DNA of 64,000 nucleotides from an uncultured virus (IMG/VR IMGVR_UViG_3300036770_001202). Taxonomy: Duplodnaviria > Heunggongvirae > Uroviricota > Caudoviricetes. Below the pieces are notes generated by a model. It was not told the origin of the DNA. It did not search any database and worked only from the letters and a program-made list of their open reading frames with translations. Below are positions 13,755 to 38,291 of this stretch, one piece after another (the stretch's first letter is position 1; every line of letters begins with the position of its first letter). The stretch lies in the IMG/VR virus record IMGVR_UViG_3300036770_001202, one strand, 5' to 3'. A program made the position numbers and the translations under genes.

Positions 13755-14062
13755 TGATTACTTTTCTTGATGGTATGGGTCCTCGGCAGTCAATGGCTGT
13801 TGAGATTCTAGACACAGTTCGATTCGGTGCGCTGGATCGTATCAAAGGCGCAAATGGTTACCGCAAGCAAAAACTTGACAAAGGTGATGCATATGTGATA
13901 CCATTTGGGTTATCAAAAGATTGTTATGGTGCAGTTCTGGTAAAGGCACCGAAGAATCTTGAAGTGCAGTATATGATGAAAGGCAAACGATTCAATCAAT
14001 CGTTTAAGTATGCAAGTGAAGTGAAAAGTTTTCTTGTCAAAAAATTCATACAAGAAACTTGA
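13754..14062 (+). CDS. Hypothetical protein
   Basis: About 102-aa ORF within the operon. Confidence 0.7.
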   Translation: MITFLDGMGPRQSMAVEILDTVRFGALDRIKGANGYRKQKLDKGDAYVIPFGLSKDCYGAVLVKAPKNLEVQYMMKGKRFNQSFKYASEVKSFLVKKFIQET

Positions 14063-14087
14063 AAAAATATTTTGGATGTGCTATAAT
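14059..14087 (+). promoter_or_regulatory. Sigma70-type promoter for the mazG-like gene and leader
   Basis: TTGAAA-17-TATAAT with extended TG. Confidence 0.7.
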
Positions 14088-14110
14088 TTTGCATGTAAGA
14101 AGGATATATA

Positions 14111-14392
14111 ATGAATGAACAACAAAAAGAAATTCTCCGAATTACACAAGAAGAATGCGCTGAGGTAATTCAAGCAATCAGCAAAATTTTTCGATTTGGA
14201 ATTGATGAAGTGTATGATGGTCAAACAAACCGTCAAAGGCTTCAAGCAGAATTAGGTGATCTTCAATGTATGATTTCGCTACTCAAAGAAACAAATGTAG
14301 TGGATGACTTTGGAGTTCACAAAGAAGAAATGAACAAACGTAATCGTCTGACAAAGTGGTCAGATATTTTTAAGGAAGAACAAATTCAATGA
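14111..14392 (+). CDS. MazG-like nucleotide pyrophosphohydrolase
   Basis: QEECAEVIQAISK..RFG...ELGDL. Confidence 0.8.
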   Translation: MNEQQKEILRITQEECAEVIQAISKIFRFGIDEVYDGQTNRQRLQAELGDLQCMISLLKETNVVDDFGVHKEEMNKRNRLTKWSDIFKEEQIQ

Positions 14393-14517
14393 AGAAACTA
14401 TTATCGCAACTCTCATATAGAAAAGGAATGCCAGCATCATGCAATTGGCAAGCCGTTTCTCGCTTTGAGGATGCGATTAATGGTAGCCACACACCTGGAA
14501 TGGGGGCTTGTACCTGA
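14389..14517 (+). CDS. Putative 42-aa leader peptide containing all 20 amino acids
   Basis: RBS TAAGGA, ATGA overlap; MKKLLSQLSYRKGMPASCNWQAVSRFEDAINGSHTPGMGACT. Confidence 0.65.
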   Translation: MKKLLSQLSYRKGMPASCNWQAVSRFEDAINGSHTPGMGACT

Positions 14518-14583
14518 GGACCAAGAAGTCCAAAAGAATACAAAGACAAGCCCCCTAGCCTAAAAACTAGGGGGTTTTTCTTT
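14502..14583 (+). terminator. Intrinsic terminator with competing antiterminator (attenuator-like)
   Basis: CCCCCTAG 14551-14558 / CTAGGGGG 14567-14574 + U tract; GGGGGCTTGT 14502-14511 is complementary to ACAAGCCCCC 14546-14555. Confidence 0.75.
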
Positions 14584-14584
14584 G

Positions 14585-14694
14585 TGTTGCACGAAAACAA
14601 CGAAGTGAAAAAAGTTCAAAAAGTTGTTGACACCAACCAGGATGCGTGTTAAGATACGCATCTAGACTGAGAAATCAGTCACCGCTCTTTAAAA
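14585..14694 (+). promoter_or_regulatory. tRNA-array promoter with boxB/boxA-like antitermination signals
   Basis: Palindromic box 14585-14602; TTGACA 14627, TAAGAT 14650; hairpin GACTGA-GAAA-TCAGTC 14665-14680; CGCTCTTTAAAA 14683-14694. Confidence 0.75.
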
Positions 14695-14710
14695 ATTTGT
14701 CTGTCAATTT

Positions 14711-14785
14711 GCACGGTTCGTCTATCGGTTAGGACGCTGCCCTTTCAAGGCGGAAAGACGGGTTCGATTCCCGTACCGTGTACCA
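14711..14785 (+). tRNA. tRNA-Glu(TTC)
   Basis: Cloverleaf, loop CTTTCAA, CCA. Confidence 0.95.
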
Positions 14786-14907
14786 TTTGATATGTCTACT
14801 GTAAGCCATGGGCTTGATCATGCCTGAGTAACTATGTATATAATTGCGGTAATTCTAGACTATCCCGCATGAGCATAGCAAATAGTGCAGTAGACATTTC
14901 AAATGGT
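14782..14907 (+). ncRNA. Long-stem inter-tRNA structured element A
   Basis: ACCATTTGA-ATGTCTACTG pairs with CAGTAGACAT-TCAAATGGT; internal hairpins. Confidence 0.6.
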
Positions 14908-14910
14908 ATT

Positions 14911-14985
14911 GGGGGGTTGGCGTAATTGGGAACGTGATGCCCTTGCAAGGCATAGTTAGGGGTTCGATTCCCCTACCTTCCACCA
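14911..14985 (+). tRNA. tRNA-Ala(TGC)
   Basis: Cloverleaf, G3-U70, loop CTTGCAA. Confidence 0.9.
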
Positions 14986-15007
14986 AACATTTTTTAAGGA
15001 GAAAGCG

Positions 15008-15139
15008 ATGAAGCGAAAACAGATCGCTAAGAAACGTAACCCGTTCGTTATCTTAGCGTTATTTAAAAAAGCGGGAGCCCATCGTAAGTCTAATAAGGCT
15101 TTGCGAAAGGCAGAAAAGCAGAAACCTTTGGGGGTATAA
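15008..15139 (+). CDS. Small basic protein (43 aa)
   Basis: RBS TAAGGAG; RNPFV...KKAGAHRKSNK; stop lies inside the tRNA-Lys 5' end. Confidence 0.65.
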   Translation: MKRKQIAKKRNPFVILALFKKAGAHRKSNKALRKAEKQKPLGV

Positions 15140-15204
15140 CTTAACGGCTAAAGTAGTAGGCTTTTAACCTATTAATCAGAGTTCGATTCTCTGTGCCCCT
15201 ACCA
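15130..15204 (+). tRNA. tRNA-Lys(TTT)
   Basis: Cloverleaf, loop CTTTTAA, CCA. Confidence 0.9.
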
Positions 15205-15334
15205 TATAAAAACATTCTGTGTGACTACAGCGGAACAACTGAAATACTTGCCAATGTCGACCAATGCAAGGACCAGCCGTGAAGAGTAGGGTCACCGCAG
15301 ATTCAAGCACTGGTCAGAGTGTTTCTATATGGTA
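15200..15334 (+). ncRNA. Long-stem inter-tRNA structured element B
   Basis: TACCATATA-AAACATTCTG pairs with CAGAGTGTTT-TATATGGTA. Confidence 0.6.
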
Positions 15335-15339
15335 GTTTT

Positions 15340-15428
15340 GGGGGCTGTTCTCTACGGCGGACTGTAAATCCGTTGCCTTAATATGTAGAGTGGTCGGCGA
15401 TTAGGTTCAATTCCTTCAGTCCCCACCA
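15340..15428 (+). tRNA. Atypical D-arm-less tRNA-Tyr(GTA)-like gene
   Basis: 8-bp acceptor + ACCA, anticodon arm GCGGA-CTGTAAA-TCCGT, T loop TTCAATT, no D hairpin. Confidence 0.7.
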
Positions 15429-15432
15429 ATTT

Positions 15433-15508
15433 GGTCTTAAAGTGTTCATGGACGCACGTTGGCTTGTCACGCCAAAAGAGTGGGGATCGTTACCCCCTAA
15501 GACCGCCA
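15433..15508 (+). tRNA. tRNA-Asp(GTC)
   Basis: Cloverleaf, loop TTGTCAC, atypical T loop ATCGTTA. Confidence 0.9.
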
Positions 15509-15515
15509 AGTTTGA

Positions 15516-15592
15516 CGCAGAGTATGGAAGAGGTCTATCCGCTTGGTCTCATAAGCCGAGAATCGCAGGTTCGAATCCTGCCTCTGCAACCA
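15516..15592 (+). tRNA. tRNA-Met(CAT), initiator-like
   Basis: C1:A72 mismatch, loop CTCATAA. Confidence 0.85.
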
Positions 15593-15597
15593 GTTTT

Positions 15598-15656
15598 AGG
15601 ATACTTTCAGCAATTAAAAAACTTTACTGGAAATAAAGCAAAAAGCGTATCCTGTT
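15598..15656 (+). ncRNA. CAGCAA-stem RNA 1 (anticodon-like hairpin, GGA)
   Basis: AGGATAC/GTATCCT stem, TTTCAGCAA, CTTTA-CTGGAAA-TAAAG, terminal GTT. Confidence 0.75.
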
Positions 15657-15664
15657 ATTTTTAT

Positions 15665-15739
15665 TCCGGTGTAGCACAGCGGTAGTGCAGTTGACTGTTA
15701 ATCAATTGGTCGTTGGTTCGATCCCAGCCACCGGAGCCA
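15665..15739 (+). tRNA. tRNA-Asn(GTT)
   Basis: Cloverleaf, loop CTGTTAA. Confidence 0.95.
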
Positions 15740-15740
15740 A

Positions 15741-15956
15741 TCCTCCGTTTACACTTTGTCGGTAAACCGAAAGTGGGTAATTGCCAAACCACAAGAGCAG
15801 GGTAGTGATGAAAGTGACGGTAGCCCCGTTTACCCCAAGGCTTCATTTCAGAAGCGACTTGAGAGATTCACAGTTTTCGCTAGATTGGACTATATCACTA
15901 TCTAGATGGACAGGGTAACCACTCAGTCTTGGGCTAATGAGGATTAGTAGCAAGAC
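15741..15956 (+). ncRNA. Unknown structured RNA X (GACAGGG-ACTCA family)
   Basis: Starts after a tRNA CCA; multiple stems; 3' module shared with 16349-16540. Confidence 0.6.
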
Positions 15957-15997
15957 ACCTTACATATGTTGATTGTTTCAATATATGTAAGGTTATC

Positions 15998-16072
15998 GGT
16001 GATATGACGTAGACGGATGCGTACCGGTTTCATAAGCCGAGGAGAGTGGATCGATACCACTTATCACCACCA
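15998..16072 (+). tRNA. tRNA-Met(CAT), elongator-type
   Basis: GGTGATA/TATCACC acceptor, loop TTCATAA. Confidence 0.8.
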
Positions 16073-16077
16073 ACTAT

Positions 16078-16153
16078 GGTGTTCTTAGTGTAGTGGTCTG
16101 CACTTCTCGCTGTGACCGAGAAAGTATGAGTTCGATCCTCATAGAACACCCCA
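16078..16153 (+). tRNA. tRNA-His(GTG)
   Basis: G-1:C73, loop CTGTGAC. Confidence 0.9.
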
Positions 16154-16154
16154 T

Positions 16155-16230
16155 GTCGCTTGAGCAAGTGTGGTCATTGCAGCGGACTGAAAATCCGATG
16201 AAGTTGGTTCGATTCCGACAGGCGGCACCA
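16155..16230 (+). tRNA. tRNA-Phe(GAA)
   Basis: Cloverleaf, loop CTGAAAA. Confidence 0.9.
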
Positions 16231-16272
16231 AATAACAAAGTAAATTTTCGACAAATAACAAAGTAAATTTTC
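16229..16272 (+). repeat. 21-bp direct repeat x2
   Basis: CAAATAACAAAGTAAATTTTC at 16229 and 16252. Confidence 0.9.
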
Positions 16273-16347
16273 ACCGGATTAACTCAGCGGTAGAGTAATC
16301 GCTTGATAAGCGATAAGTCATTGGTTCGAACCCAATATCCGGTACCA
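16273..16347 (+). tRNA. tRNA-Ile(GAT)
   Basis: Cloverleaf, loop TTGATAA. Confidence 0.95.
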
Positions 16348-16348
16348 G

Positions 16349-16540
16349 TCTCGTCAGCACAAAACGTGATTTGTGTCGCCTACTCGGCGTTATAGAGTCG
16401 GGGGCGGTGAACCGTAAAGAAGAGTGCCCATTCTAGGGAGTCCGAACCGCTGTGCCGAACCATAACGGCTCAGGAAAATATAAACGTGGTGACAGGGAGG
16501 TCAACTCATTACGGGGCGACCTAGAAAACGTAGCCGTAAT
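16349..16540 (+). ncRNA. Unknown structured RNA Y (GACAGGG-ACTCA family)
   Basis: Starts after a tRNA CCA; closing stem, several hairpins, same 3' module as RNA X. Confidence 0.6.
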
Positions 16541-16623
16541 AATTTAAGGAGAAATCAAATGGGGCAATCGTAGTTTTTGTTATCATGATTCTTCTATACA
16601 TTACATTTAAAAGAAATTTATAA

Positions 16624-16700
16624 GCCCAGGTGATGGAATTGGTATACATGTTAGTCTTAGAAACTAAATCTTGCGGGTTCGAGTCCCGCCTTGGGCACCA
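16624..16700 (+). tRNA. tRNA-Leu(TAG), short variable loop
   Basis: Loop CTTAGAA; variable region only ATCTT. Confidence 0.9.
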
Positions 16701-16705
16701 GTTTT

Positions 16706-16822
16706 AGGATACATTCAGCAAAAAATATTTCGCCTTCTAAGCGAGAGGTTGTTGGTTCGACTCCAACTTTTTCCACTAGGGAAAAATAGATCAATGGTAG
16801 ATCACTAAAAACGTATCCTGTT
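16706..16822 (+). ncRNA. CAGCAA-stem RNA 2 enclosing a circularly permuted tRNA-Arg(TCT)
   Basis: AGGATAC/GTATCCT stem around anticodon arm, T arm, looped acceptor and D arm in permuted order. Confidence 0.8.
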
Positions 16823-16829
16823 ATATAAT

Positions 16830-16904
16830 ACCCGATTGGTGAAATGAATATCACACTTTGCTACGAACGAAGAGTTGGGAGTTTGATTCTCTCATTGGGT
16901 GCCA
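16830..16904 (+). tRNA. tRNA-Arg(ACG)
   Basis: Loop CTACGAA, CCA. Confidence 0.85.
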
Positions 16905-16911
16905 AATTTGT

Positions 16912-16985
16912 TGGGGGTTAGTTAAATGGTATAACCACGGATTTTGATTCCGTTGTCAAAGGTTCGATTCCTTTACCCTCTGCCA
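16912..16985 (+). tRNA. tRNA-Gln(TTG)
   Basis: Loop TTTTGAT, CCA. Confidence 0.9.
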
Positions 16986-16992
16986 ATTACAT

Positions 16993-17070
16993 GGTGCGAT
17001 GCCGGAGCGGTCAAACGGCGGAGCCTGCAAAACTCTTGTATCGTGAGTTCGAATCTCACTCGCACCTCCA
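16993..17070 (+). tRNA. tRNA-Cys(GCA)
   Basis: Loop CTGCAAA, U73. Confidence 0.9.
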
Positions 17071-17079
17071 AAAAATTAC

Positions 17080-17108
17080 TTGACATTCAGTTTTAAAGAA
17101 TATATAAT
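17080..17108 (+). promoter_or_regulatory. Consensus sigma70 promoter
   Basis: TTGACA-17-TATAAT. Confidence 0.85.
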
Positions 17109-17119
17109 AGTAAGATAAT

Positions 17120-17193
17120 GCCCTCATAGTTAAATGGTATAACAGTTGCCTTGTAAGCATCAATCCGCAGTTCGATTCTGTGTGGGGGCACCA
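17120..17193 (+). tRNA. tRNA-Thr(TGT)
   Basis: Loop CTTGTAA. Confidence 0.9.
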
Positions 17194-17201
17194 TTTAATT
17201 C

Positions 17202-17276
17202 GCATCGTTAACTCAGCGGTAGAGTAGCGCCCTTACAAGGCGAATGTCGGGAGTTCAATCCTCTCACGATGCACCA
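17202..17276 (+). tRNA. tRNA-Val(TAC)
   Basis: Loop CTTACAA. Confidence 0.9.
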
Positions 17277-17283
17277 AAACATT

Positions 17284-17361
17284 CCGGGTGTAGCGCAGTC
17301 TGGTTAGCGCATCTGCTTTGGGAGCAGAGGGTCGGGAGTTCGAATCTCTCCACCCGGACCA
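17284..17361 (+). tRNA. tRNA-Pro(TGG)
   Basis: Loop TTTGGGA. Confidence 0.95.
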
Positions 17362-17380
17362 ATATCGTAGGGAGTTTGTG

Positions 17381-18043
17381 ATGTTGAATCCTGTAGAGTT
17401 TCATAAATTGTTTTTTACTCCCGTGTGGAGATTTGAATATCCAGATTTCAAGCAAGATGAAGAATATCTTGTTCGATACTTTGCACAGGAGCATCTTTAT
17501 CTCTCTGAAAGAGAAAAGAATGGTTTGCAAATTACTAGAGCAAATCTACATAAAGATAAGAACGTATCAAAATTGACTGAGTTTTTTCATTCATGCACAG
17601 AGAGTGTAATGCAACTGATGGGATATCAAAAGGATTGTTGTATCACTAGCATGTGGGCAACAAGACAACGTAAAGGTGGATTTCATCACAAACATTCTCA
17701 TCATAATAGTTTTTTAGGTGGATCATTTCATCTTTTCGATGCTGATGGTGGAGCAAGTGGTACAGTATTTCATAACAGCGATATCGAAAAATATGTTATT
17801 CAACCACCGCATGATTTTGATTCAGAACCTTTATTGAAAACACAAGAAGAATTTAAATTCAAGCCTGGAACATTAGTGATGTTTCCTGCTTGGGCTACTC
17901 ATTCAACTTCACCAACACATTGCTCTTATCGTATTGTTGTTGCTATGAATGCTATGCCAATTGGAATGTCAAATCATGATTACTATGATAGATATAACTA
18001 TCAAGACATGAGTGATATGGAATTATTGGAGTATCCACGATGA
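17381..18043 (+). CDS. 2OG-Fe(II) oxygenase (TIGR02466-like)
   Basis: MWA...H.H.H.NS...G.LVMFP.W..H...RIV...N; start moved downstream of tRNA-Pro. Confidence 0.85.
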   Translation: MLNPVEFHKLFFTPVWRFEYPDFKQDEEYLVRYFAQEHLYLSEREKNGLQITRANLHKDKNVSKLTEFFHSCTESVMQLMGYQKDCCITSMWATRQRKGGFHHKHSHHNSFLGGSFHLFDADGGASGTVFHNSDIEKYVIQPPHDFDSEPLLKTQEEFKFKPGTLVMFPAWATHSTSPTHCSYRIVVAMNAMPIGMSNHDYYDRYNYQDMSDMELLEYPR

Positions 18044-18603
18044 GTAATTTTATTGTCATCAACGACAATGTTGAAGTGAAAAATATACTTCAACAAGTAT
18101 TGGACAATCCTAATGATTGGAATGCAATTAAAGAGTATCCAAACATTGCAGGAGAAACAAATCCATATGGCTTCATGCCTCTTGTCATGGCAGTAGTTCC
18201 AAGTCCTGAAATGAGTCCTAAGAATTCTGAGTTGCAAAGAAATACACCTTTGCATGATAAGTATACAGAGATACATAAATTTTTGAGAAGTTATAACATC
18301 GAACAAACTTCAAGGGCTGCGTTTTTCAGACTTTACGTTGGTGATAGTGTTGGTGAACATATTGATGATGGTTCATATTATTTGACTAGAGACAGATACC
18401 ATCTATGTTTACAGGGAGAATACTTGTATAACGTAGGTGGAGAAACAAAACAAATTAAACCAGGAATGTTTTTCTGGTTCGACAACAAAAAACCTCATTG
18501 GGCATTTAGCAATGGTAAAGAAGATAGAATAACATTTGTTTTCGATCTTCCCCATTCTCCCAATAATCCTCAACATAGTGTAGGAGTTCTGAATGGGCAA
18601 TAA
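18040..18603 (+). CDS. Asp/Asn beta-hydroxylase-like 2OG oxygenase
   Basis: HIDDG.YY...RYHL...WFDNKKPH...DRITFVFD. Confidence 0.85.
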   Translation: MSNFIVINDNVEVKNILQQVLDNPNDWNAIKEYPNIAGETNPYGFMPLVMAVVPSPEMSPKNSELQRNTPLHDKYTEIHKFLRSYNIEQTSRAAFFRLYVGDSVGEHIDDGSYYLTRDRYHLCLQGEYLYNVGGETKQIKPGMFFWFDNKKPHWAFSNGKEDRITFVFDLPHSPNNPQHSVGVLNGQ

Positions 18604-18781
18604 ATGGCATGGTGGTAAAGGAAGTTCTCCTAGACCTTTTAGCGTTACTCAAGATGAGTATGAAAGACGATGGGATGCAATCTTTGGTCGTGATTTAGAC
18701 AAAGAAAAAACAAACGAAGATGGAGAAGTTCTTCAAGGCAATATGTTACCTGAAGATAAAGAAAAGATTAATAACGATTAA
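18593..18781 (+). CDS. Hypothetical protein
   Basis: GGKGS.PRP...WD.IFG motif. Confidence 0.75.
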   Translation: MGNKWHGGKGSSPRPFSVTQDEYERRWDAIFGRDLDKEKTNEDGEVLQGNMLPEDKEKINND

Positions 18782-18788
18782 CTAATAT

Positions 18789-18864
18789 GCGGGTGAAGTG
18801 TTTGTGGTTACACGGCGGTCTTCCAAACCTCAATAGATGGGTTCGACTCCCACCATCCGCTCCA
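18789..18864 (+). tRNA. tRNA-Gly(TCC)
   Basis: Loop CTTCCAA, U73. Confidence 0.9.
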
Positions 18865-18870
18865 ATTTAT

Positions 18871-18946
18871 GCGCCCGTAGTCTAAAGGATAAGGCAACAC
18901 TCTTCTAAAGTGTCTCATGGGGGTTCGAGTCCCTCCGGGCGCGCCA
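18871..18946 (+). tRNA. tRNA-Arg(TCT)
   Basis: Loop CTTCTAA. Confidence 0.9.
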
Positions 18947-18951
18947 AATAT

Positions 18952-19025
18952 ATCTCGCTAGTGTAATGGCAGCATACCAGTCTCCAAAACTGTTGGTGGG
19001 GGTTCGAGTCCCTCGCGGGATGCCA
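18952..19025 (+). tRNA. tRNA-Trp(CCA)
   Basis: Loop CTCCAAA. Confidence 0.9.
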
Positions 19026-19045
19026 ATTAATTTTTAAAGCAATAA

Positions 19046-19135
19046 GGAAGCGTGGCAGAGCCCGGTTTATTGCACCTGTCTTGAAAACAGACGAACAGAA
19101 ATGTTCCGTGAGTTCGAATCTCACCGCTTCCGCCA
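19046..19135 (+). tRNA. tRNA-Ser(TGA)
   Basis: Loop CTTGAAA, long variable arm. Confidence 0.95.
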
Positions 19136-19137
19136 AC

Positions 19138-19166
19138 TTGACAAGAGCAGAAAATTCTGCTACAAT
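19138..19166 (+). promoter_or_regulatory. Sigma70 promoter for CAGCAA RNAs 3-5 and the DUF2828 gene
   Basis: TTGACA-17-TACAAT with TG extension. Confidence 0.8.
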
Positions 19167-19188
19167 ACACAGTATTGATGATGAAAAA

Positions 19189-19412
19189 GGGATGACTACA
19201 GCAAACTCTAAAAATCACATGACTATAGAGTGCCGTGATACAGGAGGACCCTCGTAAGAGGTAATTTTTAAACGGCTAGAGAGTAAACTTGAATTAAATC
19301 TGATGTAGATAATTCTACGAAATAATGGTAATCCATTTGATTACGGTGGGGATACGCCGAAAGGGGCACCGAGGTTTAAGAACCAGTTTAACACCAACCC
19401 GATCATCCCGTT
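19189..19412 (+). ncRNA. CAGCAA-stem RNA 3 (large, multi-hairpin)
   Basis: GGGATGA/TCATCCC stem, CTACAGCAA, terminal GTT. Confidence 0.7.
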
Positions 19413-19426
19413 ATTTTTTTGATGAA

Positions 19427-19546
19427 AGAATAGGTTCAGCAACAATTTACTTAACGGCTTCATTGCCGTATCAAGACGGTCTGGTTCGCCGGACGATATG
19501 AGTTTCGAGTTCTCATATAAAACAAAAAGAAGAAAACTATTCTGTT
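19427..19546 (+). ncRNA. CAGCAA-stem RNA 4
   Basis: AGAATAG/CTATTCT stem, GTTCAGCAA, three hairpins including UUCG and T-loop-like TTCGAGT. Confidence 0.75.
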
Positions 19547-19553
19547 GTTTTTT

Positions 19554-19617
19554 AGGTTAAGTTCAGCAACATCTAAAGCATACAACTTGTAATTGTAAAC
19601 GCAAAAATTAACCTGTT
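19554..19617 (+). ncRNA. CAGCAA-stem RNA 5 (anticodon-like hairpin, TGT)
   Basis: AGGTTAA/TTAACCT stem, GTTCAGCAA, TACAA-CTTGTAA-TTGTA. Confidence 0.75.
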
Positions 19618-19631
19618 GAAAAGGAAATACT

Positions 19632-21053
19632 ATGAACACTTTTGTAAATGCAGTAGTAAATCAAGAGGCTCGTACCGCAAATGGTATGAAGGCTCGTAAG
19701 TCAACTGCCAACGCTGTAGTTGACCTGTTCTATAACGCTGGTGCGTCCCGCGGTAAGAACATCGTTCCAGCATTCTCTGCTGCAATGGCAGAGAACCGCG
19801 ACCTTGCTTTGCGCGTAGCGGCATGGCTTCGTGATGCCCGTGGTGGTGCTGGTGAACGCCAATTGTTTCGTGACATTCTAGTATATCTAGAAAAGAACGA
19901 TAAAGAAGCAGCAAAGGCTTTGCTTCGTAAAGTTCCTGAATTGGGACGTTGGGACGATATCTTTGTCTTCAATGACAAGGAACTAAAGTCTGAAGCATTT
20001 ACCATGCTTGGTGATGCTCTGCGCCAGCGTAATGGCTTGGCTGCAAAGTGGACTCCTCGTCAAGGTAAACTTGCTGTTGAGATTCGCGAATTCTTCGGAA
20101 TGTCGCCTAAGTTCTATCGTAAGTCCCTAGTCGAATTGACTAAGGTTGTAGAACAAGACATGTGCGCTAAAGAATGGGATTCCATCAACTTCAGCCATGT
20201 GCCTTCTGTAGCATCGGCTCGTTACAAGAAAGCATTCAACCGTAATACTCAAAAGTATGCCGAGTATGTTGCTTCGCTTGTAAAGGGTGAAGACAAGACT
20301 GTAAAAGTAAATGCATCTGTTGCATATCCATACGATGTGCTAAAAGGTCGCATCAACTCTTATGGCGTTTCTTTTGACAAGACAGAAATGGACTTGATTC
20401 AAAAGCAATGGGAAGCATTGCCTAACTATGTTGGTGATGCAAACATCCTTCCTCTTGTTGACGTATCTGGCTCTATGACTTGTCCAGCAGGAAAGAACAC
20501 AAAACTTTCTTGCCTTGAAGTTGCAGTCTCTCTGGGACTGTATCTTGCAGACAAGAACACTGGAAAGTTCAAGGACACGTTCCTAACTTTCTCGCACAAG
20601 CCAGAGTTGGTACACATGAAGGGTAACATCAACCAGAAGATTGACCAAATGGTTAAATCTAAGTGGGAGATGAACACTAACCTTCACGCAGCATTCAACA
20701 AGATTCTTGATGTTGCGGTTAAGGGTAACGTACCACAAGAAGAAATGCCAGCAATGGTATTGATTCTGTCCGATATGCAGTTTGACCAATGCGTAAAGCA
20801 TGACAATTCTGCAATCGAAATGATTGAACGCAAGTATGTTGCAGCCGGTTACAAAGTACCACAAGTGGTGTTCTGGAACCTGAACGCATCTTACGGCAAC
20901 GCGCCAGTCAAGTTCGATAAGAGTGGTACTGCGCTAGTGTCTGGCTTCTCGCCAGCGATTGTGAAGCCTATCCTATCGGGAGATATCGATAACTTCACTC
21001 CTGTAGCAGTCATGATGAAAACCATCATGGATGAACGCTACAAAGTTCTTTAA
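19632..21053 (+). CDS. DUF2828 family protein (TROVE/Ro60-like helical domain + vWA domain)
   Basis: LRDARGGAGER, GRWDD, AAKWTPR, VPS.A, vWA MIDAS DVSGSM, ILSDMQFD, VFWNL. Confidence 0.85.
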   Translation: MNTFVNAVVNQEARTANGMKARKSTANAVVDLFYNAGASRGKNIVPAFSAAMAENRDLALRVAAWLRDARGGAGERQLFRDILVYLEKNDKEAAKALLRKVPELGRWDDIFVFNDKELKSEAFTMLGDALRQRNGLAAKWTPRQGKLAVEIREFFGMSPKFYRKSLVELTKVVEQDMCAKEWDSINFSHVPSVASARYKKAFNRNTQKYAEYVASLVKGEDKTVKVNASVAYPYDVLKGRINSYGVSFDKTEMDLIQKQWEALPNYVGDANILPLVDVSGSMTCPAGKNTKLSCLEVAVSLGLYLADKNTGKFKDTFLTFSHKPELVHMKGNINQKIDQMVKSKWEMNTNLHAAFNKILDVAVKGNVPQEEMPAMVLILSDMQFDQCVKHDNSAIEMIERKYVAAGYKVPQVVFWNLNASYGNAPVKFDKSGTALVSGFSPAIVKPILSGDIDNFTPVAVMMKTIMDERYKVL

Positions 21054-21062
21054 ATAGAACGG

Positions 21063-21088
21063 TGAGGATTCGAAAGAGTCCTCATTTT
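21063..21088 (+). terminator. Terminator-like hairpin
   Basis: TGAGGATTC-GAAA-GAGTCCTCA + TTTT. Confidence 0.6.
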
Positions 21089-21150
21089 GAAGCATACTGT
21101 GTGTCGGCTTGCTGATAAACTTTAAGTAGAGATAGTGTGTTTCAAAATGA
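21082..21150 (+). ncRNA. Long-stem element C before tRNA-Gly
   Basis: TCATTTTGAAGCATACTGT pairs with ATAGTGTGTTTCAAAATGA. Confidence 0.6.
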
Positions 21151-21151
21151 T

Positions 21152-21227
21152 GCGGGTGTAATTCAGTTGGTAGAATGTTTCCTTGCCAAGGAAAATGTCA
21201 TCGGTTCGAGTCCGATTACCCGCTCCA
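21152..21227 (+). tRNA. tRNA-Gly(GCC)
   Basis: Loop TTGCCAA. Confidence 0.95.
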
Positions 21228-21229
21228 AC

Positions 21230-21321
21230 GGAGATATGGATGAGTGGCTTAAATCAGCGGTTTGCTAAACCGTCCTACCTCTAAACGGGTAGCGCAGGTT
21301 CGAATCCTGCTATCTCCGCCA
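21230..21321 (+). tRNA. tRNA-Ser(GCT)
   Basis: Loop TTGCTAA, long variable arm. Confidence 0.95.
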
Positions 21322-21327
21322 AGTTAT

Positions 21328-21418
21328 GCCTCGGTAGTTTAATGGTAAAACAGCGGATTTATACCCCGTAGCGCCAGATAAGCGGCTGATGTGAGTTCGA
21401 TTCTCGCCCGAGGTACCA
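21328..21418 (+). tRNA. tRNA with TAT anticodon (Ile?) and long variable arm
   Basis: GCCTCGG/CCGAGGT acceptor, loop TTTATAC, about 21-nt variable region. Confidence 0.8.
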
Positions 21419-21420
21419 AT

Positions 21421-21497
21421 GCCCTTGTAGCCCAATAGGTAGAGGCAACTGTCTCAAAAGCAGTAGAGTGTCGGTTCGAATCTGACTAAGGGCACCA
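21421..21497 (+). tRNA. tRNA-Leu(CAA), short variable loop
   Basis: Loop CTCAAAA. Confidence 0.9.
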
Positions 21498-21503
21498 AGA
21501 TTC

Positions 21504-21578
21504 GCTGGTATGGCTCAGAGGTAGAGTTCCTCCATGGTAAGGAGGGGGTCGTTGGTTCGAATCCAACTGCCAGCACCA
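21504..21578 (+). tRNA. tRNA-Thr(GGT)
   Basis: Loop ATGGTAA. Confidence 0.9.
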
Positions 21579-21588
21579 ACGTAAATAT

Positions 21589-21672
21589 GCCGCCATGGTG
21601 GAATTGGTAGACACAGGAGACTTAAAATCTCCCGCCTTGTGCGTCCCGGTTCGAGTCCGGGTGGCGGTACCA
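21589..21672 (+). tRNA. tRNA-Leu(TAA)
   Basis: Loop CTTAAAA, variable arm. Confidence 0.95.
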
Positions 21673-21795
21673 CCATTTGTTTTGTCGATGACGCTCATTG
21701 AAAAATAACATAAGTAAAACAGTAGTAATTGATGTTGTCTATGACTAAGTATTATAAAGCATGTCGCTTTTTGATTTGAACATAAGGAGAAATAT

Positions 21796-22332
21796 ATGTT
21801 AACCGTTGGTGATAAGTTACCCTCATTTGTAGTGACAGGAGTAAATCCTGGTAGTGATCAATTTTTTAATATCAATGAAGACTCATTCATGGGTAAGTGG
21901 AAAATTATCGTCTACTACCCTAAAGATTTCACATTCGTGTGTCCTACTGAAATTGTAGCATACGATAAACTCTTCCAAGACTTTGCAGACCGCGATGCTG
22001 TTCTGTTGACTGGTTCTACAGATAACGAATTCTGTAAACTTGCATGGCAGAATGCACATGAAGACTTGAAGAAAATTAAGCACATTCAGTTCGCAGATAC
22101 TAGTAGAGATTATGATGTTTCTTTAATTGAACAATTAGGAGTGTTCTATGCACCTGCCGGGGCTGCTCTTCGCGCTACTTTTATTGTTGATCCTGACAAT
22201 ATCATTCAGCATGTTACTGTAAACAACCTGAACGTTGGTCGTTCACCTGAAGAAACTTTGCGTATTCTTGACGCACTTCAGACTGGTGAATTGTGTGCGT
22301 GTAATCGCACAATCGGCGGCGAAACCCTTTAA
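21796..22332 (+). CDS. ahpC: Peroxiredoxin (alkyl hydroperoxide reductase C)
   Basis: YPKDFTFVCPTE, GRS..E.LR.LDALQ. Confidence 0.95.
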   Translation: MLTVGDKLPSFVVTGVNPGSDQFFNINEDSFMGKWKIIVYYPKDFTFVCPTEIVAYDKLFQDFADRDAVLLTGSTDNEFCKLAWQNAHEDLKKIKHIQFADTSRDYDVSLIEQLGVFYAPAGAALRATFIVDPDNIIQHVTVNNLNVGRSPEETLRILDALQTGELCACNRTIGGETL

Positions 22333-22727
22333 TGTTAGAATGTCTAATTTTAGGTGATAGCATTGCAGTCGGCACACACCAGCAAAGGCAGGAGTGTGTC
22401 GCATATGCTAAAGGTGGTTGGAATACTTGGCAATGGAATCGCGACTACTTGAAAAAAGATTTGACTGCTAAAACAGTCATTATCAGTTTGGGTTCGAATG
22501 ATCACGCTGGAGTTAAAACGATTTCTGAATTACGAAAGATGCGTAACAAAGTGGATGCAGATAGAGTATTCTGGATCATGCCTGCAATCAAAACAAACAT
22601 TCAAGCGGATGTTTTTCAAGTTGCAAAGGAAAATAACGATATCATTCTTCCAATCACTCGTCTTTCAAAAGATGGCATTCACCCAAGTTGGGCAGGCTAC
22701 AAAGAACTAGCGGAGAAAACTAAATGA
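22332..22727 (+). CDS. SGNH/GDSL hydrolase-like protein
   Basis: GDSIA, LGSND, DGIHP. Confidence 0.85.
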   Translation: MLECLILGDSIAVGTHQQRQECVAYAKGGWNTWQWNRDYLKKDLTAKTVIISLGSNDHAGVKTISELRKMRNKVDADRVFWIMPAIKTNIQADVFQVAKENNDIILPITRLSKDGIHPSWAGYKELAEKTK

Positions 22728-23239
22728 GTTGGGTAGATCAAATTAAAGAAGCGTTACCTGAATACGCTAAAGATGCAAAACTAAACTTAGATGCTGTTAT
22801 GTCTCGTAGCACATTACCTGGTGATGTTGCTATGGGTTGTGCATTAGCCGCAGCAATGTCTACTGGTAATGGTAAGTTGGTTTCATTCATTCAAGCAGGA
22901 ATGTTTGAAAGTGGTGCAGAGTTTAATTCTGCATTGACTGCTGGTGCTATCATGGCACAAAACAATGTGTGGTATCCATATGTTGAAATGGCAGAAGACC
23001 CTAATCTAAAGGGACTGCCTGCTCAATTGCGTATGAATGCTATTGCAAGCCACGGCGGAACCACTAAGGATAGATTTGAAGCATATTCATTGGCTGCATC
23101 TATTGTTGGCAAGTGTCATTTCTGCGTGAAGGCACATTACGATACATTGAAGAAAGAAGGCTATACAGTTGAACAGTTGCGTGATATCGGCAGAATTGCT
23201 GCTATCATCAATTCTGTAGCAAAGATTCTAAACTCTTAA
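22724..23239 (+). CDS. ahpD: Alkyl hydroperoxide reductase D
   Basis: LPEYAKD.KLNL, MAQNNVWY, CHFCVKAH. Confidence 0.9.
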   Translation: MSWVDQIKEALPEYAKDAKLNLDAVMSRSTLPGDVAMGCALAAAMSTGNGKLVSFIQAGMFESGAEFNSALTAGAIMAQNNVWYPYVEMAEDPNLKGLPAQLRMNAIASHGGTTKDRFEAYSLAASIVGKCHFCVKAHYDTLKKEGYTVEQLRDIGRIAAIINSVAKILNS

Positions 23240-23315
23240 GGGCTTGTGGCTTAGTGGTTAAAGCAGCCGACTCATAATCGGTTGATCGTGGGTTCGAGTC
23301 CCACCGAGCCCACCA
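23240..23315 (+). tRNA. tRNA(CAT), probably Ile2 (lysidine type)
   Basis: GCCGA-CTCATAA-TCGGT arm and D loop resembling Ile2. Confidence 0.85.
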
Positions 23316-37121: not shown

Positions 37122-37894
37122 TTGGACTGATTGGTCACGGTTATATTGGACAGTATATTGCGAAGAAGTTGTCAAGTGATGACTTTAAGTATCTTTGGCT
37201 TAGTCACAAAGATGTAATTCCAAGAGGCGTTAAGTTTATAATTAATGCCGCAGGATACACAGGAGTACCAAACGTTGATGCGTGTGAAATACACAAAGAC
37301 GAATGTGTTCAAGGTAATATTCTATATCCACTTGAACTGGAAAAAAATTTTAACGGACCAATCATCCATATCTCTAGTGGATGCGTATATACAGGATACG
37401 AAAAAGAATTTACGGAAGAAGATGCCCCAAACTTTACCTTCAACAATGCATCATTCTATAGTGCATGTAAAGGACTTGAACAGACGCTACTCAAACCATA
37501 CATGAACAAGTCTTATTTGTTCCGTATTCGTATGCCATTCGGACCAGATAGAACTCAGAAAAATCTCTTGACAAAACTAGAGGCTTATGATAAACTTATC
37601 GACAAAGAAAATAGTGTAACTCAAGTAGAAGACCTAGCAGATTGTGTTACCCATTTCATTGTTAAAAAACCTGCGTATGGTATTTACAATGTAACAAATA
37701 TTGGCAGCACAACCACAAGAAAACTTTCTGATGCACTTGCACTAAACAAAGAATGGATGACTGATGATGAGTTTAGGGCAATCACAAAAGCACCAAGAAG
37801 TAATTGTGTATTGAGTACCAAGAAACTGGAGTCTGTCTATAAGATGCGAAATGTGCAGGATGCAATTATAGATACGGTTAAGCGATATAAATAA
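37118..37894 (+). CDS. NAD-dependent sugar epimerase/reductase (RmlD-like)
   Basis: G.GYIG, NAAGYTG.PNVD.CE, Y...K, R.RMP, PRSNC.L. Confidence 0.85.
   Translation: MIGLIGHGYIGQYIAKKLSSDDFKYLWLSHKDVIPRGVKFIINAAGYTGVPNVDACEIHKDECVQGNILYPLELEKNFNGPIIHISSGCVYTGYEKEFTEEDAPNFTFNNASFYSACKGLEQTLLKPYMNKSYLFRIRMPFGPDRTQKNLLTKLEAYDKLIDKENSVTQVEDLADCVTHFIVKKPAYGIYNVTNIGSTTTRKLSDALALNKEWMTDDEFRAITKAPRSNCVLSTKKLESVYKMRNVQDAIIDTVKRYK
37886..37893 (+). promoter_or_regulatory. T4-type late promoter upstream of tmRNA
   Basis: TATAAATA. Confidence 0.75.
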
Positions 37895-37898
37895 AAAT

Positions 37899-38204
37899 AT
37901 TGCTGTATGAAGCAAAGAGAAAAGTGTTCTGGACGCGGGTTCGATTCCCGCCCGGTCCACCATAAGCATACTAGAGTGACGCTGGGGAAGAGTAATAGTC
38001 AGCGGTAAATAAATCTTCCGAGTATGCTTATGATGGGCCGGACCTGGTTTCGACAGGGCAAAGAGTAACAGAGTGGACAGCACGGTAGGCGATGACCGTA
38101 AATCAAGCAAACGAAGTAAATGCAAACGATGAAAGATTTGCACTGGCAGCCTAAACGCTGACCGGAGTTTTGCTAGTTGAACTTGGCAACAGAATCAACT
38201 AGCA
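37899..38204 (+). ncRNA. ssrA: Circularly permuted (two-piece) tmRNA
   Basis: Acceptor piece ends CCGGTCCACCA at 37962; coding piece starts GGGCCGG at 38035 (G3-U70); tag ANDERFALAA* 38122-38154. Confidence 0.92.
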
Positions 38205-38291
38205 CTTATTCATGATTTGACTTAGTTTAAAACTGATTGAAACTCTATAGATAAAAGTGAGCAATCTCGCTCAATTGACTAGGAGAAAATT

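What the first reader, a model, noticed from the sequence alone, without database searches (positions are those of the whole stretch)
14389..14583. Putative pan-codon tRNA-sensing attenuator in front of the tRNA array
Seen: a 42-codon ORF with an RBS, coupled by an ATGA overlap to a MazG-like gene. It encodes all 20 amino acids with 35 distinct codons (all four Ala codons, four Ser, three Leu, three Gly, both Lys, both Cys). Its last codons GGGGGCTTGT (14502-14511) are perfectly complementary to ACAAGCCCCC (14546-14555), which overlaps the 5' arm of the intrinsic terminator (14551-14579). Established: this is the geometry of ribosome-mediated attenuation. Inference: a ribosome finishing the leader masks the antiterminator and termination occurs. 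A stall at any depleted or cleaved tRNA frees it and allows read-through into the tRNA island. That would be a general tRNA-pool sensor rather than a single-amino-acid one. Caveat: a separate promoter at 14627-14655 can also drive the array.
Basis: partly seen in the sequence, partly recalled or inferred. Interest (0 to 1): 0.9.

Follow-up and report, generated by a model that had tools for sequence, protein, structure and literature searches.

The report
All-amino-acid leader gating phage tRNAs
A 42-codon mini-gene that uses all 20 amino acids ends inside a stop-or-go RNA switch just ahead of this phage's tRNA genes, so the phage probably makes more tRNA whenever ribosomes decode slowly.

Summary

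It is not a chance pattern. Pattern scans and a covariance model gave 64 related loci and 43 distinct leaders, almost all from uncultured phage contigs.

- **Layout:** a 29-42-codon ORF whose stop begins 11-24 nt after a G-rich strand X. X pairs with the 5' arm (Y) of an intrinsic terminator. tRNA genes follow in 33 of 34 contexts.
- **RNA switch:** X:Y covaries. Each X fits its own Y better than others' Ys (0 of 20000 permutations; tool count).
- **Composition:** 29 of 43 leaders hold all 20 amino acids, 11 hold 19 and 3 hold 18. Peptide identity between clusters is about 27%. Chance of all 20 is 0.1-1.1% per leader.

Best reading, at 0.65: a ribosome-mediated attenuator. Completed translation masks X and transcription terminates. 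Slow decoding at nearly any codon frees X and lets transcription run into the tRNA array.

Nothing here is experimental. A second promoter plus boxA also feeds the array. My literature searches found no published case for tRNA genes. The whiB7 uORF attenuator is the closest analogue. This scan has noted the same design before on other DNA.

The parts
14059..14087 (+). Promoter-like site (TTGAAA-17-TATAAT with TG) in front of the MazG-like gene. Likely source of the transcript that carries the leader.
   Evidence: 11 of 12 matches. Function inferred.
14111..14392 (+). MazG-like nucleoside triphosphate pyrophosphohydrolase gene (93 aa). Its stop overlaps the leader's start (ATGA).
   Evidence: Pfam MazG, E 8e-5, 23.3 bits against a cut-off of 22; phrog_4856, 1e-25.
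14372..14378 (+). Shine-Dalgarno-like AAGGAAG, 10 nt before the leader ATG.
   Evidence: The same motif is kept in L001-L004 and L012.
14389..14517 (+). Leader ORF: 42 codons, all 20 amino acids, 35 distinct codons. Stop TGA at 14515-14517.
   Evidence: The frame is open for at least 37 codons in 43 of 43 relatives. Indels among close relatives are multiples of 3.
14502..14511 (+). Strand X (GGGGGCTTGT), the 5' strand of the antiterminator, lying in the last codons of the leader.
   Evidence: Covariation with Y.
14518..14531 (+). Small hairpin GGAC-loop-GTCC inside the antiterminator loop.
   Evidence: folds. Kept in the closest relatives. Role not tested.
14546..14555 (+). Strand Y (ACAAGCCCCC). 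It pairs either with X (antiterminator) or, through 14548-14558, with the terminator's 3' arm.
14548..14583 (+). Intrinsic terminator: an 11-bp stem, an 8-nt loop and a T-rich tail. The A-tract at 14537-14546 can extend the stem by pairing with the tail.
   Evidence: core -17.9 kcal/mol, extended -29.8 kcal/mol.
14627..14655 (+). Second promoter-like site (TTGACA-17-TAAGAT with TG), downstream of the terminator.
   Evidence: A consensus-like promoter also lies after the terminator in 27 of 34 family contexts; in some it follows the first tRNA.
14683..14698 (+). boxA-like element (CGCTCTTTAAAAATTT) between the second promoter and the first tRNA.
   Evidence: Compare the rrn and lambda nutL boxA-spacer oligonucleotides in Table 1 of PMC2724277. 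The motif is present within 400 nt in 29 of 34 family contexts.
14711..23315 (+). tRNA array (27 ARAGORN calls) with protein genes interspersed. This is the presumed regulated target.

Best explanation
The region is a ribosome-mediated (leader-peptide) transcription attenuator placed between the MazG-like operon and the phage's tRNA array.

Anatomy. The last codons of the 42-codon leader form strand X. X can pair with strand Y, which is also the 5' arm of the intrinsic terminator. The two structures exclude each other.

Proposed working. A ribosome that reaches the stop codon, 13 nt after the start of X, covers X. Y then pairs with the terminator's 3' arm and transcription ends at about 14580. 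If the ribosome is delayed further upstream, X is free when Y emerges. The X:Y antiterminator forms first and RNA polymerase reads on into the tRNA genes.

Why all 20 amino acids. Because the leader holds every amino acid at a near-flat frequency, a shortage of almost any charged tRNA, or a general slowing of elongation, should raise read-through. The phage would then make more tRNA when decoding falters and less when it is fast.

Shown and inferred. Shown here: the anatomy, its conservation, the covariation of X:Y, the fixed stop-to-X distance, the link with tRNA genes, and the selection for complete amino-acid coverage. Inferred: that the ORF is translated, the direction of the switch, and the nature of the signal.
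For: 1. Anatomy at the stated coordinates.

2. Family. Covariance model R1 found 64 loci at 52.6 bits or more, with the next best at 37.6. They are the window, L088, L089, L002 and 60 of the 87 loci from the complete viral pattern scan.

3. X:Y covaries.
- With G-run and C-run as anchors there are 17 tail classes. Each X with its own Y gives 4.29 of 6 Watson-Crick pairs and a contiguous extension of 3.88. With another class's Y it gives 3.18 and 0.83. Permutations reaching the observed value: 0 of 20000.
- Duplex energy is -14.38 kcal/mol for own partners and -10.85 for crossed partners over 26 classes, again 0 of 20000. The own Y ranks first for 11 of 26.
- The count of structure pairs on A5: 78.3% of cells paired against 71.2 +/- 1.1 in shuffles (0 of 500). 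Covariation score 0.214 against 0.108 (0 of 500). All slid registers score lower.
- Example: the pair G14506-C14551 is A-T in L012 and T-A in L149 and L226.

4. Geometry. The stop begins 11-24 nt (median 12) after the first G of X in 43 of 43 leaders. The gap from stop end to the C-run is 20-34 nt.

5. ORF. The leader frame is open for at least 37 codons in 43 of 43. The -1 frame is never open for 29 codons. Starts carry an SD, an ATGA overlap, or a -10 box 3-6 nt upstream.

6. Amino-acid coverage. 29 of 43 leaders hold 20 amino acids, 11 hold 19 and 3 hold 18, in 29-42 codons. The null P(20) runs from 0 of 200000 (29 codons) to 0.011 (42 codons). There are 11 clusters at 50% identity, with a between-cluster median of 0.27. 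Fisher's combined P on the worst member of each cluster is 1.6e-11. Replacing 73% of a complete leader at random leaves P(20) at 0.001-0.016.

7. A forward tRNA lies 43-161 nt after the terminator start in 33 of 34 contexts.

8. The local antiterminator hairpin (-21.8 kcal/mol) can compete with the core terminator (-17.9 kcal/mol).

9. Precedent. In the whiB7 uORF attenuator, efficient uORF translation gives termination, and the uORF's amino-acid content decides which starvations are sensed (PMC10274678, passages read).
Against: - There is no experimental or transcript evidence.
- The free-RNA MFE favours the terminator state. Forcing X:Y in the full leader costs 0.7-10.4 kcal/mol in 17 representatives.
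- A trp-style 1:2 helix that would sequester X when nothing is translated is not supported: mean z is -0.05 against shuffles. The default state without ribosomes is therefore unknown.
- Most members, this window included, have a second promoter plus boxA after the terminator. The array does not depend on read-through, and the attenuator's share of tRNA output is unknown.
- One clade (L357, L365, L404) has only 6-7 bp of X:Y.
- 14 of 43 leaders lack one or two amino acids.
- Inside the window's own clade the pairing varies only by G-U or mismatch (L088, L002, L379). The compensatory support comes from more distant clades.
- The family was gathered with patterns that demand the terminator motif and an upstream GGGG. 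Only the bases beyond the G/C runs are an unbiased test.
- Clusters are related, so the permutation and Fisher values overstate independence.
- In the window the leader's initiation is coupled to MazG translation, which adds a second input.
Confidence: 0.65

Rival explanations
1. The two-state RNA switch is real but reads something other than the supply of every tRNA. Candidates are general transcription-translation coupling, the stage of infection, or a protein bound to the conserved hairpin inside the ORF. The complete amino-acid set would then be secondary.
For: A hairpin with an ATCGC/GCGAT base lies inside the ORF in 16 of 16 non-window-type leaders that I inspected. It could bind a factor or pause RNA polymerase. 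The window's leader is coupled to MazG translation. The 1:2 helix expected of a classical amino-acid attenuator is not supported.
Against: This does not explain why 40 of 43 leaders keep 19-20 amino acids in 29-42 codons across clusters of about 27% identity. It does not explain why the rare residues Cys, Trp and His are 2-5 times enriched. It does not explain why the target is always tRNA genes.
Confidence: 0.15
2. The ORF encodes a small functional peptide. The terminator simply ends the MazG operon. The X:Y helix serves RNA processing or stability and does not regulate termination.
For: The ORF is conserved with start signals. Some residues recur: S/E-Y-R, C-x-N/D and W. The terminator has features of a bidirectional one.
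Against: Peptide identity between clusters has a median of 0.27. Composition is near-flat, unlike a folded or membrane peptide. The leader matches no Pfam or PHROGs family. A helix that competes with the terminator's 5' arm, plus a stop codon held 11-24 nt from it, has no evident use in plain termination.
Confidence: 0.1
3. The RNA senses uncharged tRNA directly, in the manner of a T-box, without a ribosome.
For: The target is tRNA-related and there is a terminator/antiterminator pair.
Against: No Rfam family reaches its gathering score in 14000-15000 apart from the tRNAs. The ORF, its start signals and its stop position are conserved, which a T-box does not need.
Confidence: 0.03
4. Chance: an ordinary short ORF, an ordinary terminator and an accidental 10-nt complement.
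For: GC-rich terminator arms readily find G-runs nearby. In the control, 3 unrelated terminators had 8-nt complements.
Against: Conservation and covariation hold across 43 distinct leaders and 11 clusters. No unrelated terminator reached 10 nt.
Confidence: 0.02

Closest known systems
Leader-peptide transcription attenuators of enterobacterial amino-acid operons (trpL, hisL, pheL, thrL, leuL, ilv leaders). The mechanism is recalled from textbook knowledge. The pheL abstract was seen in listings, and the comparison to trp and leu leaders was read in the discussion of PMC10274678.
   Same: A short translated leader and an intrinsic terminator. An antiterminator shares a strand with the terminator's 5' arm. 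The leader's stop codon is placed so that a terminating ribosome masks the antiterminator strand.
   Different: There is no run of one regulatory codon. The leader instead holds every amino acid at a near-flat frequency. The regulated genes are tRNA genes of a phage, not biosynthetic enzymes. No supported 1:2 helix. Some relatives look leaderless. Weak Rfam similarity to Thr_leader (22.1 bits against a gathering score of 55) and His_leader (19.3 against 49) is far below threshold.
whiB7 (wblC) uORF transcription attenuator of Actinobacteria (PMC10274678; abstract and passages read).
   Same: Efficient uORF translation gives a terminator, and translation stress gives an antiterminator and read-through. 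[quoted passage not shown] Depletion of many amino acids, tRNAs or synthetases activates it. Removing a residue type removes that response.
   Different: The whiB7 uORF is 25-40% alanine and controls a transcription factor in bacteria. Here alanine is 5%, the leaders are 29-42 codons, and 29 of 43 hold all 20 amino acids. The target is a phage tRNA array. There is no sequence relation.
Antibiotic-responsive ribosome-mediated attenuators, such as mef(E)/mel (PMC4335068; title and abstract seen in the listing).
   Same: Ribosome stalling in a leader ORF switches a terminator off.
   Different: Those respond to drug-stalled ribosomes at particular peptide contexts and control resistance genes. 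No such context is evident here.
rrn-type boxA antitermination signal (PMC2724277, Table 1). This concerns the element downstream of the finding.
   Same: CGCTCTTTAAAAATTT at 14683-14698 resembles both the rrn boxA-spacer and the lambda nutL boxA-spacer oligonucleotides listed there.
   Different: It sits before a phage tRNA array. Binding of NusB/NusE was not tested.

Membership tests
Ribosome-mediated (leader-peptide) transcription attenuator | Short ORF with translation start signals upstream of the regulated genes | tested here: met
   42-codon ORF with AAGGAAG 10 nt upstream and an ATGA overlap. The frame is open in 43 of 43 relatives. SD, overlap or leaderless-type starts.
Ribosome-mediated (leader-peptide) transcription attenuator | Intrinsic terminator between the leader and the regulated genes | tested here: met
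   Stem 14548-14577 plus a T-rich tail. The family was collected through this motif. tRNA follows in 33 of 34 contexts.
Ribosome-mediated (leader-peptide) transcription attenuator | Alternative antiterminator helix that shares a strand with the terminator, supported by covariation | tested here: met
   X:Y is 10 bp in the window. Own-partner against crossed-partner tests gave 0 of 20000. The count of structure pairs gave 0 of 500 shuffles on three of five measures and scored above all slid registers.
Ribosome-mediated (leader-peptide) transcription attenuator | Leader stop codon placed so that a terminating ribosome covers the antiterminator strand | tested here: met
   The stop starts 11-24 nt (median 12) after the first G of X in 43 of 43 leaders. 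The footprint size is recalled knowledge.
Ribosome-mediated (leader-peptide) transcription attenuator | Anti-antiterminator or pause helix (1:2) that sequesters the antiterminator strand | tested here: not met
   The best duplex between upstream ORF and X is no better than with shuffled sequence: mean z is -0.05 over 18 representatives. A separate hairpin within the ORF exists, but RNAalifold gave no consensus.
Ribosome-mediated (leader-peptide) transcription attenuator | Enrichment of codons for the amino acid whose pathway is regulated | tested here: not met
   No run of any codon. Composition is near-flat with all 20 residues. This is the point of difference, not a failure of the mechanism.
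Ribosome-mediated (leader-peptide) transcription attenuator | Read-through depends on leader translation and rises on ribosome stalling | not testable with these tools
   Needs reporter assays, Term-seq or Ribo-seq.
whiB7-type broad-spectrum uORF attenuator | uORF of diverse composition in front of a terminator/antiterminator | tested here: met
   compared with passages of PMC10274678.
whiB7-type broad-spectrum uORF attenuator | Alanine-rich uORF (25-40%) controlling whiB7 in Actinobacteria | tested here: not met
   Alanine is 5.0% of family residues. The target is tRNA genes of phages.
T-box riboswitch | Match to the T-box covariance model | tested here: not met
   Rfam scan of 14000-15000 at E up to 10 gave no T-box match.
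MazG-like NTP pyrophosphohydrolase (upstream gene) | Match to the family profile above its threshold | tested here: met
   Pfam PF03819, 23.3 bits against a cut-off of 22. phrog_4856, 1e-25. It covers only positions 84-166 of the 195-position PHROG profile.

The most novel reading that the evidence does not exclude
These phages carry a compact 'pangram' sensor: a leader of 29-42 codons kept stocked by selection with every amino acid. It converts a slowdown at any codon into read-through into a near-complete tRNA gene set. Causes of slowdown could include host tRNA cleavage by anticodon nucleases, host shut-off or starvation. That would be a self-correcting supply circuit and a regulated counter-defence. 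It would be the first leader-peptide attenuator known to control tRNA genes, and the first shaped for complete rather than selective codon content.
Probability: 0.5. Interest if true: 0.9.

Novelty: new variant of a known kind. Interest (0 to 1): 0.85.

Why it matters
Phage tRNA genes are usually discussed as fixed cargo that matches codon use or replaces tRNAs destroyed by host defences. The abstract of PMC12409363, seen in the listing, says tRNA-cleaving immune systems are widespread and that some viruses answer with their own tRNAs. A translated test gene that meters tRNA transcription would show that this cargo is regulated by demand.

It would also give a natural, very small, general sensor of decoding speed. 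It is testable with simple reporters, one amino acid at a time.

It extends leader-peptide attenuation from 'one operon, one amino acid' to 'all amino acids, the tRNA set'. The experimentally studied whiB7 uORF shows that such a reading is feasible.

Eight literature searches found no description of such control for tRNA genes. Most subscription journals are outside that library. The older literature on the coliphage T5 tRNA region in particular could not be checked.

Tried and rejected
- **Cultured phages.** blastn of the window region and of two relatives' leaders against 50,697 phage records gave nothing, or only tRNA matches. tblastn with the MazG-like protein found only T4-like phages of enterobacteria at under 60% identity.
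- **MazG-end pattern scan.** It added no new member. Its 2 extra hits were chance matches.
- **Two terminator-motif scans.** The stricter pattern ran to completion.
- **Public RNA runs.** Eight runs held only 5-8% of the sampled words. The four I laid are contigs that cover mainly tRNA genes of other organisms. They show nothing about ends or read-through.
- **Anti-antiterminator (1:2) helix between the 5' part of the ORF and X.** It looked attractive in single folds but is no better than with shuffled sequence. Rejected as unsupported.
- **Hairpin inside the ORF.** RNAalifold on a MAFFT alignment gave 0 pairs because the arms were misaligned. This part rests on inspection alone.
- **Register in the model alignment.** The covariance-model alignment did not fully resolve the one-base register difference between 4-G and 5-G members. 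The tool count therefore understates the pairing.
- **Bacterial genomes.** 1 of 67 pattern hits is a family member, on a 3-kb contig of a metagenome-assembled genome, probably phage DNA.
- **The window's own assembly.** It is not held. I did not use the near-identical virus record.
- **Not tested.** Whether a leader's missing residues match missing tRNA genes in the same phage, because only short flanks were fetched.
Full report
**1.

The window is part of a T4-like myovirus genome. A gp6-like baseplate wedge protein matches phrog_219 at 8.9e-164. GC is about 40%.

A 93-aa MazG-like gene lies at 14111-14392 (Pfam MazG E 8e-5; phrog_4856 1e-25). It ends in ATGA, and the ATG opens a 42-codon ORF at 14389-14517. 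AAGGAAG lies 10 nt upstream.

The peptide holds all 20 amino acids and 35 distinct codons. GGGGGCTTGT at 14502-14511 (strand X) is the exact reverse complement of ACAAGCCCCC at 14546-14555 (strand Y). Y overlaps the 5' arm of a terminator-like hairpin at 14548-14577, which has a T-rich tail.

A promoter-like site follows at 14627-14655, then a boxA-like element at 14683-14698. Twenty-seven tRNA genes run from 14711 to 23315.

The free-RNA MFE fold chooses the terminator, lengthened by pairing of the upstream A-tract with the U-tract over 14537-14588, and not the antiterminator. Taken locally, the antiterminator hairpin 14502-14555 is -21.8 kcal/mol, the core terminator is -17.9 and the extended form is -29.8.

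**2. Is it more than chance in this one window?**

- Of 287 mechanical ORFs of 29-42 codons in the window, one has 20 amino acids and one has 19.
- For 42-residue windows drawn from the window's 45 long ORFs, P(20 distinct) is 0.011. The mean number of distinct codons is 26.0, and 35 or more occurred in 0 of 200000 draws.
- Among 121 distinct terminators with the same core motif from other viral contigs, 106 have no upstream complement of 6 nt or more to the 5'-arm region. Six reach 8 nt. Three of those six, including the only two that reach 10 nt, turned out to be relatives of this element.

**3. Relatives.**

A search for MazG relatives in viral contigs gave five loci (L001-L004, L012) that keep the overlapping small ORF, the terminator and a tRNA array. 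Their indels within the ORF are multiples of three. A metagenome scan added L088 and L089.

The terminator-motif scans then turned up divergent members that are not next to MazG. A complete scan with an upstream GGGG added to the pattern gave 87 loci.

A covariance model built from 27 sequences with the X:Y helix separates the family cleanly. There are 64 hits at 52.6-88.9 bits, and the next best is 37.6. The 64 are the window, L088, L089, L002 and 60 of the 87 loci. They give 43 distinct leader peptides of 29-42 residues, in 11 clusters at 50% identity. Median identity between clusters is 0.27.

Cultured-phage records hold no detectable copy. In one-genome-per-species bacterial contigs, 1 of 67 pattern hits is a member, on a 3-kb contig.

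**4. The RNA switch is conserved by compensation.**

To avoid circularity I anchored X at its G-run and Y at the terminator's C-run, both of which the search patterns demanded. I scored only the bases beyond them.

- There are 17 distinct tail classes. An X with its own Y gives 4.29 Watson-Crick pairs of 6 and a contiguous extension of 3.88. With the Y of another class it gives 3.18 and 0.83. No permutation of 20000 reached the observed sum.
- With duplex energies over all 43 distinct sequences (26 classes), own partners average -14.38 kcal/mol and crossed partners -10.85. Again 0 of 20000 permutations reach the observed mean. The own Y ranks first for 11 of 26.
- The pair G14506-C14551 of the window is A-T in L012 and T-A in L149 and L226. 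Further out, TTTGTG/CACAAA, TTTATG/CATAAA and TTTGA/TCAAA replace one another.
- The tool count on the model alignment A5 gives 78.3% of cells paired against 71.2 +/- 1.1 in shuffles (0 of 500). Cells changed on both sides number 38 against 17.1 (0 of 500). The covariation score is 0.214 against 0.108 (0 of 500). All slid registers score lower, the best being +1 at 70.4%.

Results against, or limits:
- The number of pairs with a double change (5 against 4.3, 223 of 500) and the number of further pair types (170 of 500) do not stand out.
- That alignment still mixes two registers.
- One clade (L357, L365, L404) has only 6-7 bp of X:Y.
- Within the window's own clade the changes are G-U or mismatches only.

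**5. The ORF and its geometry are conserved.**

- In 43 of 43 leaders the frame is open for at least 37 codons up to the stop. The -1 frame is never open for 29 codons. The -2 frame is open for 29 codons in 15, and in the window's own clade that frame is the MazG frame.
- The stop codon begins 11-24 nt (median 12) after the first G of X. The C-run of Y starts 20-34 nt (median 30) after the stop. A ribosome halted at the stop would therefore cover X but not Y. The footprint size is recalled knowledge.
- Start contexts differ by clade. They include an ATGA overlap with the MazG-like gene, a GGAG-type SD before GTG or TTG, and AAGGAAG before ATG. In several clades a TTGACA-17-TATAAT promoter has its -10 box ending 3-6 nt before the ATG, which suggests leaderless transcripts (inference).

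**6. Complete amino-acid coverage is under selection.**

Of the 43 distinct leaders, 29 hold all 20 amino acids, 11 hold 19 and 3 hold 18. Some reach 20 in 31-32 codons.

| Leader length (codons) | Null P(20) |
|---|---|
| 29 | 0 of 200000 |
| 34 | 0.0014 |
| 36 | 0.0031 |
| 39 | 0.0056 |
| 42 | 0.011 |

The null mean is 14.4-16.3 distinct residues.

- Taking the worst member of each of the 11 clusters, Fisher's combined P is 1.6e-11. The clusters are related, so this overstates independence.
- Ancestry alone does not explain it. Replacing 73% of positions of a complete leader with background residues leaves P(20) at 0.001-0.016.
- Family composition is near-flat. Cys is 4.6%, Trp 3.3% and His 3.2%, against 0.9%, 1.0% and 1.5% in the window's genes.
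- Codon diversity exceeds the null at P < 0.05 in 18 of 22 representatives. It does not in L002, L381, L397 and L380.
- Same-residue pairs use different codons in 355 of 475 cases against 309.5 expected. This is a modest excess, measured against this window's codon usage only.

**7. The target.**

A forward tRNA lies 43-161 nt after the start of the terminator in 33 of 34 family contexts. The 34th has only 58 nt of flank. In 27 of 34 a consensus-like promoter follows the terminator, and in 29 of 34 a boxA-like motif lies within 400 nt. In a few (L391, L425) the first tRNA comes before that promoter.

The attenuator therefore gates transcription arriving from upstream. In the window that is probably from the promoter-like site at 14059-14087 through the MazG-like gene. 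A constitutive route usually exists as well.

**8. Mechanism.**

The best-supported reading is leader-peptide attenuation.
- Completed translation masks X. The terminator forms and transcription ends.
- A ribosome delayed upstream leaves X free. X:Y forms before the terminator's 3' arm is made, and polymerase reads into the tRNA genes.
- With every amino acid in the leader, almost any decoding shortage is sensed.

Shown: anatomy, conservation, covariation, geometry, association with tRNA genes and composition. Inferred: translation of the ORF, the direction of the switch and the signal.

Not supported: a trp-like 1:2 helix (mean z -0.05). What happens on untranslated RNA is therefore open.

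A hairpin with an ATCGC/GCGAT base lies within the ORF in 16 of 16 non-window-type leaders. By eye it shows apparent compensation: ATCAC/GTGAT against ATCGC/GCGAT, and AGCC/GGCT against AACC/GGTT. RNAalifold gave no consensus for it. It may be a pause hairpin. That is speculation.

**9. What is known.**

The class is known from the trp, his, phe, thr and leu leaders (recalled). The nearest functional analogue is the whiB7 uORF attenuator (PMC10274678, passages read). There:
- efficient uORF translation gives termination;
- translation stress gives read-through;
- genes for 18 of 20 amino acids scored as activators;
- removing Trp or His from the uORF weakened the matching response.

The present element differs in three ways. 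Its composition is flat (Ala 5% here, against 25-40% there). It is very compact. Its target is a tRNA array in phages.

No Rfam family covers it. Eight literature searches found no report of such control of tRNA genes. The library lacks most subscription journals.

Earlier notes of this scan describe the same design in other genomes. They are not independent evidence. Two of them judged the codon-sampling idea unsupported in their own cases. In this family it is supported.

**10. Verdict.**

It is a new variant of a known kind of regulator. Interest is high because it is unexpected for tRNA genes and directly testable.

Noticed in passing
window 14683-14698; also L002, L281, L149, L226, L265, L313, L340: A boxA-like element (CGCTCTTTAAAAATTT) sits between the second promoter and the first tRNA. 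It resembles the rrn and lambda nutL boxA-spacer sequences in Table 1 of PMC2724277. A like motif lies within 400 nt of the terminator in 29 of 34 family contexts. This suggests rrn-type antitermination on phage tRNA arrays. Earlier scan notes report the same elsewhere.
   Followed up: partly
window 37870-38245; L007 and L008 3270-3650: ARAGORN calls a permuted tmRNA in the window with tag ANDERFALAA. In relatives L007 and L008 a like tmRNA starts directly after the MazG-like gene, where the window has the leader and tRNA array.
   Followed up: no
window 21328-21418, 15998-16069, 16717-16775: ARAGORN lists no tRNA-Tyr. The gene called tRNA-Ile(UAU) at 21328-21418 is 91 nt with a long variable arm, which is unusual for Ile. 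Rfam finds two further tRNA-like genes that ARAGORN missed. One, at 15998-16069, has a CAT anticodon by my reading. Rfam does not list ARAGORN's tRNA-Asp at 15433-15508.
   Followed up: partly
L355, L391, L397, L380, L386, L358, L394, L361, L374, L436, L359, L372, L434, L384, L418, L401 (ORF bodies); window 14399-14486: A hairpin with a conserved ATCGC/GCGAT base and a variable, apparently compensating distal part lies inside the leader ORF. In the window the MFE fold pairs about 14399-14416 with 14469-14486. RNAalifold on a MAFFT alignment found no consensus. It may be a pause hairpin.
   Followed up: partly
L390, L402, L405, L373, L389, L367, L361, L374, L436: In several clades a TTGACA-17-TATAAT promoter ends 3-6 nt before the leader's ATG. 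The leader mRNA may therefore be leaderless.
   Followed up: no
L386, L397, L380, L360, L357 upstream of the leaders: A recurrent CCTATATAC- or GCATATATA-like motif lies 25-40 nt before SD-dependent leaders. It may be a phage-specific promoter.
   Followed up: no
window 19632-21053: A 473-aa protein with DUF7788, DUF2828 and weak Ro60 vWA matches (phrog_850, 'RNA-binding protein', 1.7e-141) is encoded inside the tRNA array. Next to it are 2OG-Fe(II) oxygenase, AhpC-like and RNase H-like genes.
   Followed up: no
L470 (3-kb contig of a gammaproteobacterial metagenome-assembled genome): This is the only family member found in the bacterial genome collection, at 68.8 bits. It is probably phage DNA binned with a bacterial genome.
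   Followed up: partly
L463, L466, L474, L491 (one chromosome, four places): The same terminator motif with an upstream GGGG recurs four times in one Candidatus Njordibacter chromosome, each at 41.5 bits, below family level. I did not look at what it flanks.
   Followed up: no
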